Below are positions 5,340 through 57,005 of a stretch of DNA of 64,000 bases, piece by piece (the stretch's first letter is position 1; every line of letters begins with the position of its first letter). Below the pieces are notes generated by a model. The model was not told where the DNA came from and ran no database searches. It worked only from the letters and a program-made list of their open reading frames with translations. The translations under genes were made by a program, and so were the position numbers. The DNA comes from Eledone cirrhosa. Taxonomy: Eukaryota. The stretch spans positions 13,330,001 to 13,394,000 of the forward strand of contig OZ024751.1 of NCBI GenBank assembly GCA_964016885.1, read 5' to 3'.

Positions 5340-6050
5340 CCAACCACGGATTACACATATTGGACATCGATCCCAAGAATCAAGCACATCCCCAGGATAT
5401 TACCCAGCATTCCACCACATCCTCTACGGAACTACCTTAAGGACTCACCCACAGACATACACTCAAAAAAACATTTTTCCAACACGCCACCTACATCCAC
5501 AACACGGATAAACACCACACACACGTGCGTACCACCACATATTTACACACTCAGCCTCCGGAATCCTCTACCCCACCCCTCTGACCCCTACCCATCCACA
5601 CACGCACACCGACGTACACCCCACCCCACACACACCTTTTCCTGAACATGCAACCCCGTTCTTCGCCCAACTCTTACTTCCACATACACACACACCACCT
5701 TCAGCCCTCCCCGCTCGGACACCCCGCTTCCCTCTCCCCACTCCACCCGCCACCACCCCTACACGCCCCACCACCTTCCACCACCTGTTTTACTTCATGT
5801 TTATTTTTATTTTTATTATGCTTTTATATTTAATTTCATTTGTACCGTTTCCTCTCACCCCCTTTTTTCTATATGTCTCTACACCACTCCCCTACACACC
5901 CTTGGAACTCTCTTCCCACACAGTTTTCACCTGAAGAAGGGCTTATGCCCGAAACGTCGTTCCCAACCACTACCCCACTCTCAAGAGCGTGAAACTAATA
6001 AACCTTTGTTCGTACTGCCTCTCTGTTTTGTTCCCGTTCAATTTTTTACT
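5340..6050 (+). mobile_element. Decayed 3' end of a Penelope-like element (GIY-YIG C-terminus remnant, 3' UTR, HHR), ending in (TA)n
   Basis: Broken frames read HTLKKTFFQHATY...HGIN, similar to the PLE endonuclease C-terminus LEQKFIFQxxTLxPxGIN; HHR at 5931; tail gcgtgaaactaata also at 32367 and, related, at 46872. Confidence 0.55.
5928..5960 (+). ncRNA. Minimal type I hammerhead ribozyme (PLE type)
   Basis: CTGAAGA (5931) a GGGC ttat GCCC GAAA (5951) CG TC; stem I only 2 bp, so partly decayed. Confidence 0.75.
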
Positions 6051-6060
6051 ATATATATAT

Positions 6061-6338
6061 ATGTAGAGGTTATATTTAATTTGTTGGGATACAACAAGCT
6101 AAAATATTTTTATAACTGATATAAAGCACTCAACAAATTATTGGAGTAAATATACAATATATTAACAAATGGAAACTGTATTTATAAAACCATATTTATT
6201 TCATTATACATATTTCAAGGGCCACCAAGGCAGATTATGGTGCGCTTTCATCAGATAAAATATAATACAGATTAGTTTTATAAATAAATATTGACATACC
6301 CTGAGAAAATGCAACCTTAACGGTTGGAGCTTCCTGGA
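6061..6338 (-). mobile_element. HHR element family A, copy 1, between (TA)n tracts
   Basis: Minus-strand HHR core at 6213-6254 (CTGATGA aagcgcacca..tggtggccctt GAAA); homologous to four other loci. Confidence 0.8.
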
Positions 6339-6350
6339 TATATATATATA

Positions 6351-6785
6351 AGTAGAAGTTGTATTTAATTTGTTGGAAGTCCGACAAACAGAAATGTTTA
6401 TAACTGATTAAGAGCACTCAACAGTTTAGTGGAGTAAATATACAATGATATTAAATGAATGGAAACAATATTTATAAAACCATATTTATTTTATTATATA
6501 TATTTCAAGGGAAACCAAGACAATATTGGTACGCTTTCATCAGATAAAATACAAAGTTTGTTTTATAAATAGAGACGTACCCATGAAAATCATACCTTAT
6601 CGGTTCACTACCCAGTGAATTTCCAACCGATAAGGTATGATTTCCATGGGTACGTCTCTATTTATAAAACAAACTTTGTATTTTATCTGATGAAAGCGCA
6701 CCAATGTGGTCTTGGTTGCCCTTGAAATATATATACTAAAATAAATATGGTTTTATAAATATAGTTTCCATTCATTTAATTTCAT

Positions 6786-6790
<5 letters not shown>
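6351..6790. mobile_element. HHR element family A, fold-back copy (arms about 6440-6605 and 6625-6790)
   Basis: About 165-bp inverted arms with 19-bp spacer; HHR cores at 6503-6543 (-) and 6687-6727 (+); (TA)n on both sides. Confidence 0.85.
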
Positions 6791-6844
<54 letters not shown>

Positions 6845-6847
<3 letters not shown>

Positions 6848-7091
6848 AAAGTTCTATTTAAATTGTTGGGATACAACAAGCAAATATTTTTATAACTGAT
6901 ATAGACTATCCCTGATGTCTTCCAAAAGTAACGGTTGCATTTTGAAAGGGTATGTCAATATTTATTTATAAAACTGGTATATATTGTATTTTGTCTGATG
7001 AAAGCATACCATAATTTAACATGGTATCCTTGAAATATGTATAATAAAATAGATATGGTTTTATAAATATAGTTTCCATTTGATAATATCG

Positions 7092-7092
<1 letters not shown>
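6845..7092. mobile_element. HHR element family A: inverted 3' terminus (6845-6903) joined to forward HHR segment (6905-7092)
   Basis: HHR CTGATGA 6995, GAAA 7032, stem II core atacca/tggtat; (TA)n on both sides. Confidence 0.8.
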
Positions 7093-7123
<31 letters not shown>

Positions 7124-7406
7124 TCTATCTAGCCATCTCTGTATCTCTCTCGTAACCCTTTGAAACTGCCCCTGGTTCTGTTACACAAAGCTATGTTTTA
7201 TAGCGTTTATATTCATGAAAAAAACCTTGGCATCATAATTTCATTAAAAAAAAGCTTTGTTAAATTATGTTGCCAAACACCAGCTCAATACTGAAACTTA
7301 TATTGCTGTCTCTCCCCTTCCCCCTTTCTGTCATTGCTTAACACTCCTAGCCCCCTCCCCCATTTAAACACAAACAATATATACAGAACATGATTACATA
7401 TATATA

Positions 7407-10175: not shown

Positions 10176-10282
10176 ATATATATATATAATATATATAATA
10201 TATATATGTATATAATATATATATATAATATATATATAATATATAATATATATATATAATATATATAATATATATAATATAG

Positions 10283-10315
<33 letters not shown>

Positions 10316-10320
<5 letters not shown>

Positions 10321-10555
10321 ATATTAACAAATGGAAACTATATTTATAAAACCATAATTATTTTATTATATATATTTCAAGGGCGACCAAGGTAAATTAT
10401 GGTGCGCTTTCATCAGATAAAATACAGATTTGTTTTATAAATAAATATTGACATACCCGGAAAAAAAAACAACCTCAACGGTTGAAATTCGTTGAAATAA
10501 GTTATACAAATGTTTAAGGTTGTTAAATCCCAACAAATTAAATATAACCTCTGCA
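10316..10555. mobile_element. HHR element family A: minus HHR segment (10316-10490) plus inverted 3' terminus (10491-10555)
   Basis: Minus strand reads tattttat CTGATGA...GAAA tatata TA ataaaata (core 10375-10416, 8-bp stem I). Confidence 0.85.
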
Positions 10556-12210
<1,655 letters not shown>

Positions 12211-25829: not shown

Positions 25830-26100
25830 CCCTATCCGGGAGCTTCCAACAGTAATGGTTGCATTTTTTAAGGGTATGTCAATATTCATTTATAAAACTG
25901 ATCTATATTATATTTTATCTGATGAAAGCACACCATAATTTAACTTGCTGTCCTTGAAATATGTATAATGAAATAAATATTGTTTTATAAATATAGTTTC
26001 CATTTGTTAATATCGTTTTTACTCAAAATATTTGTTGAGTGCTTTATATCAGTTATAAAAATATTTGCTTGTTGTATCCTAACAATTTAAATAGAACTTT

Positions 26101-26103
<3 letters not shown>
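25830..26103 (+). mobile_element. HHR element family A, forward copy with complete 3' end
   Basis: CTGATGA 25919, GAAA 25956; ACTC 26021 ... gttGAGTgct 26034-26043; ends in (TA)n. Confidence 0.8.
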
Positions 26104-26139
<36 letters not shown>

Positions 26140-30281: not shown

Positions 30282-30717
30282 GGTTTGTTGGTTGACCACT
30301 GGATAGAAATGGTCATTCCGTATGGTCAATCTTGATGCAATATTATGGAGAGTACTCAACGTAGTGCAGTTCACCCGTCTTCGTTTGTGTAGTTGGTGGT
30401 GATAATACGGAGTTAATTATTATAAATAAAATAACAGGAGGCTGGACGGGTGTAAATCCTTGAAAAGTTTATTATACTATGATCATTTCAATGACCGGGT
30501 TCCGTATGAATCCGGTGATATCATCAGGTATTCACTTGAGGTCAGTCGTCCTCTCTGTCTCTGATTTTCGGACCCATGGATTTTATATATTCCTTTGTTA
30601 TATTTCGAATACCTGATGATATCACCGGATTCATATGGAACCCGGTCATTGAAATGATCATAGTATAATAAACTTTTCAACGATTTACACCAGTCCAAAC
30701 TCCTGTTATTTTATTTA

Positions 30718-30721
<4 letters not shown>
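30279..30721. mobile_element. HHR fold-back element family C (arms 30419-30533 and 30607-30721)
   Basis: atac CTGATGA (30613) tatcaccgg..ccggtcatt GAAA (30651) tgatca TA gtat; mirror copy on minus at 30486-30527. Confidence 0.85.
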
Positions 30722-30774
<53 letters not shown>

Positions 30775-35732: not shown

Positions 35733-36165
35733 AGCTCTTAAGAGTCAATGGCCATCCAAAATCACCGGGAGAGATGACCCCTTTAGCCTTAGTCAAGGCA
35801 GAATTCTAGGAGAAGGAAAACTCTGATATAACACCTGCAACCCTGATGGTATCCAATGATGTTGACTTGTTCTTCTTTTTGGTAAATAGCATCTTGGTTA
35901 AGAGAGTGGGACTGGCTTTGTGCAGTGCCTTTGCTCACTATAAAAGCTTCACGGCACAGGCATTGCTTTATATCTGGAGATCTCTCTGCACTTGTCCTCA
36001 CATGGGCCCAGCACTATGTGTCAATAATTGTCCTACCATGGGCCTAGCACTATGTGTCAATAATTGTCACAGGTGTAGTGTTTGTACCAGAGGTTTCAAG
36101 TCGCTGGCTGGACTAAAAAGTCACACTCGTTCAGCGCTTCGGTAGGGGTTATCATACATGGATGT
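35733..36165 (+). mobile_element. Probable internally deleted (bipartite) RTE-derived element
   Basis: 5'-UTR-like ctaggagaaggaaaactctga (35806) and terminal C2H2-like HRCSVCTRGFKSLAGLKSHTR within about 430 bp. Confidence 0.55.
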
Positions 36166-36204
36166 AAAGTAGTGGCCGTACTCGAAAACGAGTTGGCAGC
36201 CACC

Positions 36205-36391
36205 ATTTATATAAATATGTATACGTACATACATATACGGTGCTGATGACAGCTAATAAGCTAGAAAGAAGTTCATCGCACTTTGTCAGTGTTGAACAAA
36301 ATGGCAACGATGGTTGCCGAACACTGTACGGCTTAATTCGGGCTGTTTGTTTACAAACAAACCGAGCATTATAATAAATGCTTGGTAAACC

Positions 36392-36424
<33 letters not shown>

Positions 36425-36973
36425 GTGTGCATGTATGTATGTATATACATACTACTGTACGTCTGTATACATATATGTATGTACGAATACATACTTATAT
36501 TTAAGTAACAGCCGTACTAAGAGTGAGAAATGAAATTTCATTTTTTCCATTTATCGTTTTCGGTACACCCGGCCGACTAACTCACTCGATATGCAAATTA
36601 GGCTGCTCGGTCGTTAATATGCATAAGAAAAGTATATACTTTCAAACGTTCAATCATCTGACAGGAAGGTATACGGTGCTGATGACAGCTAATAAGCTAG
36701 AAACTAGTTCATCGTTCCTTTGTCGGTGTTGAACAAAATGGCAACGATGGTTGCCGAACACTGTACGGCTTAATTCGGGATGTTTGTTTACAAACAAACC
36801 GGGCATTATAATAAATGTTCTGTAAACCCATACATACATATATATGTGTGCATGTATGTATGTATATACATACTACTGTACGTCTGTATACATATATGTA
36901 TGTACGTATACATACTTATATTTAAGTAACACCCGTACTAAGAGTGAGAAATGAAATTTCATTTTTTCCATTT
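36205..36973 (+). mobile_element. Retrozyme-like tandem element family E (436-bp monomer, about 1.7 units, short inverted 5' piece)
   Basis: HHR cores at 36243 and 36679 (436 bp apart); second unit repeats the first until (TA)n. Confidence 0.85.
36673..36715 (+). ncRNA. Minimal type I hammerhead ribozyme, apparently intact
   Basis: acggtg CTGATGA c agct aata agct a GAAA ctag TT / catcgt: 6-bp stem I, 4-bp stem II, palindromic CTAG loop, GUU site. Confidence 0.8.
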
Positions 36974-37257
36974 ATATATATATATATATACATATAGACA
37001 CACAGACACAAATATATATATATATATAGACACACACATACATATACACACACACACATATATATATATATACACACACCCATATATATATACATATATA
37101 TATATTCCTTTACATATATTTGTGGTGTTAACTATTTTCTTTACGTTTCACAGCAATGCTAAAATTGTTAAAAACAAAATGTATACCTTAAATTCAAATG
37201 AACACACACACTTATCTGTGTGTATGAATAGCTGGATGGATATGTGTGTGTGTATAT

Positions 37258-56370: not shown

Positions 56371-56387
56371 CATAAATATATATATAA

Positions 56388-56570
56388 AAGAGCTTCTACA
56401 GGACTAGAACTGTTTCATTCGTGAGAAATCATCAGGAAGCTTCCTGATGATTTCTCACAAATGAAACAGTTCTAGTCCGGTAGAAGCTCTTCTATATTAA
56501 AACATTTATACTCTGCTATGTATTGAGTACCTTACTTACTGTGGTTACCTCCGATTCAACCCGGAATAAC
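56388..56570. mobile_element. HHR fold-back element family I (zero-spacer palindrome 56388-56491)
   Basis: Centre aagctt 56437-56442; CTGATGA 56444, GAAA 56463; mirror copy on minus; ACTC 56510 ... ttGAGTac 56523. Confidence 0.8.
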
Positions 56571-57005
56571 TTAAATATAAGTATGTATACGTACATACGT
56601 GAGAAATGAAATTTCATTTTTTCCATTTATCGTTTTCGGTACGCCCGGCCGACTAACTCACACGATATGCAAATTTGGCTGCTCAGCCGTTAATATGCAT
56701 AAGAAAAGTATATTCTTTCAAGCGTTCAACTGACAGGAAGGTATACGGTACTGATGAAAGCTAATAAGCTATAAACTAGTTCATCGTTCCTTTGTCAGCG
56801 TTGAACAAAATGGCAACGATGGTTGCCGAACACTGTACGGCTAATAATTCGGGCTGTTTGTTTACAAACAGACCTAGCATTATAATAAATGTTCGGTAAA
56901 TCCATACGTACATATATATATATATATGTGTGTGCATGTATGTATATATATACATAGTACTGTACGTCTGTATACATATATGTATGTACGTATATATACT
57001 TATAT
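56571..57005 (+). mobile_element. Family E (retrozyme-like) copy, permuted start, inverted 5' piece
   Basis: Homologous to 36523-36920; HHR at 56751 with GAAA mutated to TAAA (56772). Confidence 0.85.

What the first reader, a model, noticed from the sequence alone, without database searches (positions are those of the whole stretch)
36205..36973. 436-bp head-to-tail monomer bounded by two minimal hammerheads: candidate non-LTR retrozyme/circRNA
Seen: HHR cores at 36243 and 36679, exactly 436 bp apart, in a direct tandem of about 1.7 units with no credible ORF. The second HHR has 6-bp stem I (acggtg/catcgt), agct/agct stem II and a palindromic CTAG loop; the first has the loop mutated to GAAG. 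Established: metazoan non-LTR retrozymes are short non-coding tandem units with minimal type I HHRs that cleave as dimers, give circular RNAs and are thought to be mobilised by PLEs. Inference: transcription would release a monomer of about 436 nt (about 36274-36709) able to circularise; possibly an uncatalogued cephalopod family.
Basis: partly seen in the sequence, partly recalled or inferred. Interest (0 to 1): 0.82.

Follow-up and report, generated by a model that had tools for sequence, protein, structure and literature searches.

The report
Hammerhead retrozyme with Penelope insertion footprint
This is an aged copy of a very abundant 425-base non-coding repeat that carries a predicted self-cutting hammerhead RNA and is inserted in the two-armed pattern of Penelope-like retrotransposons, so it is likely a new member of a known kind of animal parasite (retrozyme); cutting and RNA circles are untested, and this copy's first ribozyme is predicted to be damaged.

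Summary
Confirmed: hammerhead (HHR) cores at 36243 and 36679, 436 bp apart, in a 1.7-unit tandem without a coding frame. Corrections: the family unit is 425 bp; the HHR is canonical type I (extended helix I), not minimal; a 29-bp inverted arm lies at 36209-36237. The family has at least 11,681 exact HHR cores, dispersed in (TA)n tracts. Arms end at two fixed sites 54 nt apart; head-to-head arm pairs used one of each in 27 of 38 pairs and never the same site (11 unclassifiable; one likely exception elsewhere in the window). That is the Penelope-like (PLE) 'tail' signature. A 467-bp sister family (about 5,400 cores) keeps the same fold by compensatory changes; its youngest lineage has identical arrays of up to 17+8 units. 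No copy adjoins a PLE reading frame (0 of 143 loci). Best reading: a non-LTR retrozyme copied by a PLE enzyme, probably from an RNA circle; an uncut linear template is not excluded. No RNA data. This locus is probably a dead end. The scan noted this kind before on other DNA. New member of a known kind.

The parts
36209..36237 (-). Short inverted arm: consensus positions 343-371, ending at site a; shares TATA with the start of the main arm
   Evidence: 28 of 29 bases match; at up to 2 mismatches this 29-mer occurs in the window only here and in three family units
36234..36975 (+). Main arm: 5'-truncated unit (consensus 116-425) followed by a full unit (1-425), ending at site b; 1.7 units
   Evidence: full unit 2.9% from the young-subfamily consensus
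36237..36279 (+). HHR1, damaged: core intact, palindromic loop CTAG changed to GAAG, outer helix I missing; predicted cut 36273|36274
36274..36709 (+). Predicted monomer between the two cut sites (436 nt); folds as a multibranched structure closed by the helix I stalk
   Evidence: circular fold z -8.7 against 30 shuffles; release is a prediction
36391..36500 (+). TA-rich long hairpin of unit 1, with the locus-specific 16-nt (TA)n expansion; site a at its 3' side (36500)
   Evidence: contigs end and run into (TA)n at 36500
36501..36554 (+). 54-nt 'tail' between site a and site b (unit 1), holding a conserved hairpin
36591..36598 (+). Octamer-like ATGCAAAT kept in both sister families; promoter role unsupported
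36645..36736 (+). HHR2 with extended helix I stalk: core 36679-36685, stem II 36687-36698, GAAA 36700-36703, palindromic loop 36704-36707, predicted cut 36709|36710 (GUU)
36922..36975 (+). Tail of unit 2; the insertion ends at site b
36976..36992 (.). (TA)n target tract

Best explanation
The element is one aged, two-armed insertion of an abundant 425-bp non-coding hammerhead repeat (non-LTR retrozyme) that was likely copied into a (TA)n tract by the enzyme of a Penelope-like retrotransposon, probably from a circular RNA. Shown: copy number, dispersal, fixed 3' ends at two sites, inverted arms, variable 5' truncation, no coding frame, conserved fold. Inferred: transcripts of multi-unit loci are cut by HHR pairs (palindromic helix III) into monomers whose ends the helix I stalk holds together; a host ligase closes them; a GIY-YIG/RT protein of the Neptune/Nematis type nicks both strands of (TA)n and starts reverse transcription at site a for one strand and site b for the other; each cDNA runs on through the cut site for a variable length, and the two are joined head to head. 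This locus itself is predicted to be a dead end.
For: Copy number: 1,282 GUU-type plus 10,399 GUA-type exact cores, 9,101 matches to a 3'-proximal 40-mer. In 75 loci taken from the first 100 listed of those 9,101 matches, 102 of 117 arms end at site a (53) or b (49); 37 loci have head-to-head arms; of 38 pairs 27 are a+b, 0 a+a, 0 b+b, 11 have an unclassified end (27 of 27 against one half, p 1.5e-8). Sister family: 15 of 17 two-armed loci a+b, none alike, among 28 loci (read). Two adjacent internal RT start sites defining a tail, and nicking of both strands in AT-rich DNA, are what a purified PLE protein does (PMC11167929); inverted 5'-truncated copies and a one-sided tail are PLE traits (PMC8557442). 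An autonomous RT+GIY-YIG element of this genome shows the same a/b two-arm shape in (TA)n (L183). 79 of 117 arms cross the cut site, 10 of them twice, and 5' ends do not pile up there (3 seen, 3.6 expected), so a cut linear monomer was not the usual template. HHR core invariant between families; changes fall at N7, H17 (A, U or C, never G among subfamily types seen) and in stems with compensation: 21 of 84 pairs change on both sides, 97.6% of cells paired, slid controls 24-52% and at most 6 pairs. Fold z -8.7 and -9.9, and -6.6 and -8.6 without the TA-rich part. Youngest sister lineage: 7 loci on 5 contigs, units nearly all identical, 6 of 7 multi-unit, up to about 17+8 units.
Against: No RNA evidence of any kind. 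No sequence shared with a PLE end was found (tail against L183 p 0.27 and 0.89), so the helper is unnamed. In vitro the anole PLE used uncut RNA and did not need its HHR (PMC11167929), and 8 of 9 Xenopus retrozyme dimers did not cut (10.64898/2026.07.22.740005). This subfamily has a C-A mismatch at the base of stem II and a GUU triplet, and its minimum-energy fold mispairs the core. Some array length arose by local block duplication after insertion (L239, L236). A second copy in the window has two arms that both end near site a. The covariation is mainly a two-family contrast, the structure was derived from the same alignment, and the count of compensated pairs was reached by 36 of 500 shuffles.
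Confidence: 0.78

Rival explanations
1. Same parasite and same PLE helper, but the template is an uncut linear multimer read from multi-unit loci; the HHR cuts rarely or serves another step, and arrays grow further by local duplication.
For: Uncut RNA was the main substrate for a purified PLE (PMC11167929). Long genomic arrays that could act as masters exist (17-unit arm; 5 tandem cores at C1:19.315 Mb). Variants I first took as private to one locus mark a 7-locus lineage. Local block duplications are seen.
Against: The HHR and the end-joining stalk are kept by compensatory change. Linear copying with 5' truncation can only shorten arrays, yet young loci carry long identical arms on both sides. 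Related retrozymes give circles in vivo (PMC7229834).
Confidence: 0.14
2. The unit is the pseudo-LTR or UTR of a long protein-coding PLE; the copies are 5'-truncated insertions of it.
For: Same ends, inversions and target as PLEs; vertebrate retrozymes often match PLE pLTRs (10.64898/2026.07.22.740005). Only 50 of 150 listed GIY-YIG places were examined. One sister-family arm abuts a PLE ORF end head to head (L205).
Against: Arms run from unit into unit, up to 2.8 units, never into an ORF; 6 of 143 loci have a PLE protein match nearby and none adjoins an arm's 5' end. PLE ends examined share no non-microsatellite sequence with either family.
Confidence: 0.05
3. A satellite or DNA-level repeat (unequal exchange, rolling-circle DNA) with an incidental or fossil HHR-like motif.
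For: Local block duplications occur; no Rfam hammerhead hit.
Against: Copies are dispersed, end at fixed 3' sites with variable 5' truncation; one sister locus has a 16-bp target duplication (L304); strand-specific HHR core and compensated stems.
Confidence: 0.03

Closest known systems
Metazoan non-LTR retrozymes (Cervera and de la Pena 2020, PMC7229834; mussel 350-390 bp, axolotl 330/350 bp)
   Same: Short, non-coding, GC below 50%, one type I HHR per unit, weak palindromic helix III, highly self-paired fold, thousands of copies, co-occurs with PLEs; a non-Watson-Crick pair at the base of helix II as in axolotl HHR_Amex2.
   Different: Unit 425 bp, slightly above their 170-400 nt; most copies are 0.3-2 units with an inverted second arm; fixed a/b ends and (TA)n targeting are not described in the parts I read (supplement unreadable); circles not shown here.
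Vertebrate non-LTR retrozymes as PLE derivatives (Li, Clavereau and Pollet 2026, 10.64898/2026.07.22.740005)
   Same: Monomers, dimers and multimers of an HHR unit; proposed non-autonomous partner of PLEs.
   Different: No mollusc class among the genomes listed in the text; there 24 of 57 Xenopus families match known elements, mostly PLE ends, here no pLTR match was found; this locus fails their 'active' test of two consecutive complete HHRs.
Penelope-like elements, Neptune/Nematis type and anole Poseidon (PMC8557442; PMC4209133; PMC11167929)
   Same: Partial tandem plus inverted 5'-truncated copy, tail at one end only, AT-rich target, HHR in the repeat.
   Different: No ORF; tail 54 nt (about 70 in the sister family) against 30-40; canonical rather than minimal HHR; strict a+b pairing of the two arms, whereas the anole protein showed no start-site difference between strands.

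Membership tests
Metazoan non-LTR retrozyme | Short unit (about 150-450 bp) in head-to-tail repeats | tested here: met
   425-bp consensus; 44 of 117 arms longer than one unit; sister arrays to about 17 units per arm
Metazoan non-LTR retrozyme | Type I HHR in each unit with conserved core | tested here: met
   Family. This locus: HHR2 complete, HHR1 damaged
Metazoan non-LTR retrozyme | No protein-coding capacity | tested here: met
Metazoan non-LTR retrozyme | No LTR, PBS or PPT | tested here: inconclusive
   No LTR-like layout in the parsed loci; PBS and PPT were not searched for
Metazoan non-LTR retrozyme | Stable self-paired fold, GC below 50% | tested here: met
Metazoan non-LTR retrozyme | Self-cleavage, as monomer or dimer | not testable with these tools
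   Only duplex energies computed
Metazoan non-LTR retrozyme | Expressed as linear and circular monomers | not testable with these tools
   No RNA holder listed; the four runs are contigs of unknown kind
Minimal PLE hammerhead (min-HHR) | Helix I 4-5 bp with poorly defined loop 1, helix II 7-8 bp | tested here: not met
   Helix I 6 bp plus internal loop and outer stems, helix II 4-5 bp, palindromic loop 3
Canonical type I hammerhead | Loop 1 - loop 2 tertiary contact | tested here: inconclusive
   Internal loop position and an AAYA loop 2 are kept in both families; the contact itself was not modelled
Autonomous Penelope-like element | RT plus GIY-YIG ORF between pLTRs | tested here: not met
   0 of 143 loci with an adjoining ORF
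PLE-type insertion | Tail at one end, inverted 5'-truncated copy, microsatellite target | tested here: met
PLE-derived non-autonomous element | Sequence shared with the end of an autonomous PLE | tested here: inconclusive
   None in 50 of 150 listed GIY-YIG places; other PLE families unsampled

The most novel reading that the evidence does not exclude
A PLE reverse-transcriptase dimer holds one ribozyme-made RNA circle and primes both nicked target strands at two different, mutually exclusive sites on it, rolling round up to 17 or more times per arm. The genome then records, in thousands of copies and in two sister families, the first direct footprint tying animal retrozymes to PLE enzymes and to rolling-circle reverse transcription, with an active intact helper and an active parasite lineage side by side for reconstitution.
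Probability: 0.4. Interest if true: 0.75.

Novelty: new member of a known kind. Interest (0 to 1): 0.5.

Why it matters
The helper and the template of animal retrozymes have been proposed but not shown in the papers I read. This family carries the PLE two-start-site signature on a non-coding unit, and its sister has a very young lineage beside long PLE reading frames, so the life cycle (cut, close, roll, insert) can be rebuilt in a tube. The two families together hold over 17,000 exact ribozyme cores in this genome.

Tried and rejected
RNA evidence: no RNA holder listed; laying the four contig runs only confirmed ends at 36500 and 36554. snRNA-type promoter (idea recalled from newt satellite 2): no octamer within 330 bp upstream of 3 of 20 fetched U2 genes and no convincing match to either unit; the octamer is destroyed in an active sister lineage. 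Rejected. Dimeric or trimeric circles behind alternating units in L239 and L236: the variant phases fit local block duplication. Rejected. One RNA molecule per locus: the L231 variants occur in 7 loci, so not shown; within-locus distance 5.2% against 9.0% between loci is partly a subfamily effect. ADAR footprint: rare variants shared within a locus were A>G 10, T>C 3, against 26 and 50 for single-unit variants (Fisher p 0.005, binomial p 0.09), but three of the ten are the L231 lineage cluster; a weak, post-hoc hint only. Pile-up of 5' ends near consensus 236 (8 of 117) lies in a palindrome where the older subfamily has an indel; treated as a parsing effect, not tested further. A gap-tolerant parse merged arms and was dropped for the strict one. 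DNA searches with the two halves of the sister unit returned nothing because common words are skipped. Low-copy third HHR types were an older sister subfamily (L275) or unrelated singletons without PLE frames. Row F1C_L075 of alignment A2 had wrong coordinates and is ignored. Rfam hits at E<=10 are microsatellite hairpin matches below gathering score. The Atlas search only confirmed the PLE protein type.

Full report
Observation. The two hammerhead cores are at 36243 and 36679, 436 bp apart, in a direct repeat (36234-36555 against 36670-36976) with about 10 substitutions and a 16-nt (TA)n expansion in the first unit. The second HHR is complete; the first has GAAG for CTAG, a changed 3' strand of helix I and no outer helix. 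There is no credible reading frame. Rfam finds no hammerhead.

The family. The window lies in a 3.0-Gb genome. Exact HHR cores number 1,282 with a GUU triplet and 10,399 with GUA, reversed controls 0; a 3'-proximal 40-mer has 9,101 matches. The consensus of 17 full-length matches is 425 bp and the window's full unit is 2.9% from it. Subfamilies differ at HHR position 7, at the cut base, at the unpaired base of stem II (C-A or U-U) and by G-U/A-U exchange in helix I: positions that established hammerhead rules tolerate (own knowledge).

Insertion anatomy. I parsed 75 loci covering most of the first 100 listed of the 9,101 matches, all on one chromosome (four duplicate loci dropped; a few places already held as earlier loci were left out). 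Of 117 arms, 53 end at site a (consensus 364-379), 49 at site b (407-425), 15 elsewhere; most run into (TA)n. 37 loci have two arms head to head; of 38 pairs, 27 are a+b, none a+a or b+b, 11 have an unclassified end. The window's element is such a pair: short arm at a, long arm at b. A second copy in the window (56570-57005) has both arms ending near a and is a likely exception. 44 arms exceed one unit and 3 exceed two; 79 cross the predicted cut site; 5' ends are not enriched there (3 seen, 3.6 expected). Contigs of four runs also break into (TA)n at 36500 and 36554.

A sister family. A relaxed pattern gave 5,393 matches; the 100 listed are all one other HHR type, in a 467-bp unit collinear with ours. 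It has the same two ends at homologous places, 15 of 17 two-armed loci a+b among 28 loci (read). Both consensus units fold as the same multibranched circle (z -8.7 and -9.9 against 30 shuffles; -6.6 and -8.6 against 60 shuffles without the TA-rich part). On 19 units chosen from 81 full-length ones (10 and 9), 21 of 84 pairs change on both sides, including 3 of 6 in proximal helix I and 3 of 5 in helix II; slid controls reach at most 6 pairs. This is largely one two-family contrast on a structure derived from the same alignment. The youngest sister lineage has 70 marker matches in 7 loci on 5 contigs; units are nearly all identical within and between loci, arms reach about 17+8 units, and one locus outside (TA)n shows a 16-bp target duplication. 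Some arrays also grew by local block duplication.

Is it a PLE end? The genome holds RT+GIY-YIG elements with the CX2-5CxxC linker of the Neptune/Nematis type (motif as described in PMC8557442). Ten such frames used as queries matched 6 of 143 family loci, none adjoining an arm's 5' end, and 1 of 28 sister loci, head to head (L205). Neither unit shares non-microsatellite sequence with the 50 GIY-YIG places examined of 150 listed, beyond nested copies. L183 shows the same two-arm shape with ends about 41 nt apart in (TA)n, but its tail is not significantly like ours. The helper is therefore inferred by footprint, not named.

Mechanism. Shown: the anatomy above. From the literature: a purified anole PLE protein nicks both strands of AT-rich DNA and starts reverse transcription at two adjacent internal sites that define the tail; its HHR was not needed in vitro (PMC11167929). 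Canonical type I HHRs with a palindromic loop 3 cut as dimers (PMC4209133), and coral, mussel and axolotl retrozymes accumulate as circles closed probably by a tRNA ligase (PMC7229834). Inferred: multi-unit transcripts are cut in pairs, closed into circles, and copied from sites a and b at once. The strict a+b pairing suggests one RNA or one asymmetric dimer serving both strands. A linear uncut template remains possible. This locus is probably inactive: predicted helix III duplex -0.2 against -4.8 kcal/mol.

What I saw of each paper. PMC7229834: parts 2-4 of 6, supplement unreadable, which may list further species. 10.64898/2026.07.22.740005: parts 1-3 of 5, supplements not seen. PMC4209133 and PMC11167929: parts 1-2 of 4. 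PMC8557442 and PMC8967140: passages. Searches for an octopus or cephalopod retrozyme listed no paper devoted to one; I saw those listings and opened only the two named. Searches served the mechanism. Repbase and Dfam could not be searched, and most subscription papers are missing.

Earlier notes of this scan describe the same kind on other DNA, one with the same two-start, circle idea; I had the a/b result before reading them, and they are not independent support. A look-up by this sequence found nothing.

Verdict. Observation confirmed with corrections; new member of a known kind; interest 0.5, for the testable PLE footprint and the young sister lineage rather than for this decayed copy.

Noticed in passing
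window 56570-57005: Second insertion of the same family, with a broken HHR core; 30-bp inverted arm and main arm both end near site a, unlike the a+b rule.
   Followed up: partly
G000:C1:30831609-30840868 (L231), G000:C18:30950143-30962117 (L298-L299): 467-bp sister retrozyme with a fully paired stem II; very young lineage with identical two-armed arrays (about 7+13 and 17+8 units) and a destroyed octamer with three clustered A>G changes.
   Followed up: yes
L303:465-1454: Array switches from one sister subfamily to another between unit positions 32 and 100, just after the cut site (31); would fit a template jump at an opened circle, but it is one case and the interval is 15% of the unit.
   Followed up: partly
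L205:930-1834: Sister-family arm joined head to head to the 3' end of a PLE ORF of the L183 type: co-insertion or insertion into an older fragment.
   Followed up: partly
L183:1856-7170: PLE with a 1,096-codon open frame, inverted upstream arm, two ends about 41 nt apart and a U3-type HHR-like motif; candidate helper for in vitro work.
   Followed up: partly
L181, L187, L198, L199 3' UTRs: Several PLE families carry HHR-like motifs with a UUGA.AA core and a palindromic CCGG loop (U3-A8 type as in PMC4209133).
   Followed up: no
window 6050-7131, 10259-10607, 25833-26117, 35473: Another HHR family (long stem II, TATA loop); 6050-7131 is a four-HHR head-to-head structure with about 290-310 bp spacing.
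   Followed up: partly
window 30416-30724 and 56372-56509: Two further short families, each an inverted pair of HHR motifs; other single HHR-like motifs at 5931, 28204 and 46820.
   Followed up: no
L275-L276 (G000:C1:95.646-95.654 Mb): Older sister subfamily with a GUC triplet in a locally amplified array with a higher-order period near 4.2 kb.
   Followed up: partly
window 36060-36205: Left flank is the end of another very high-copy repeat (depth; also seen in L187).
   Followed up: no
G000:C3:307.35-307.45 Mb: Tandem array of U2 snRNA genes with a period near 2.2 kb; no octamer in 330 bp upstream of those checked.
   Followed up: partly
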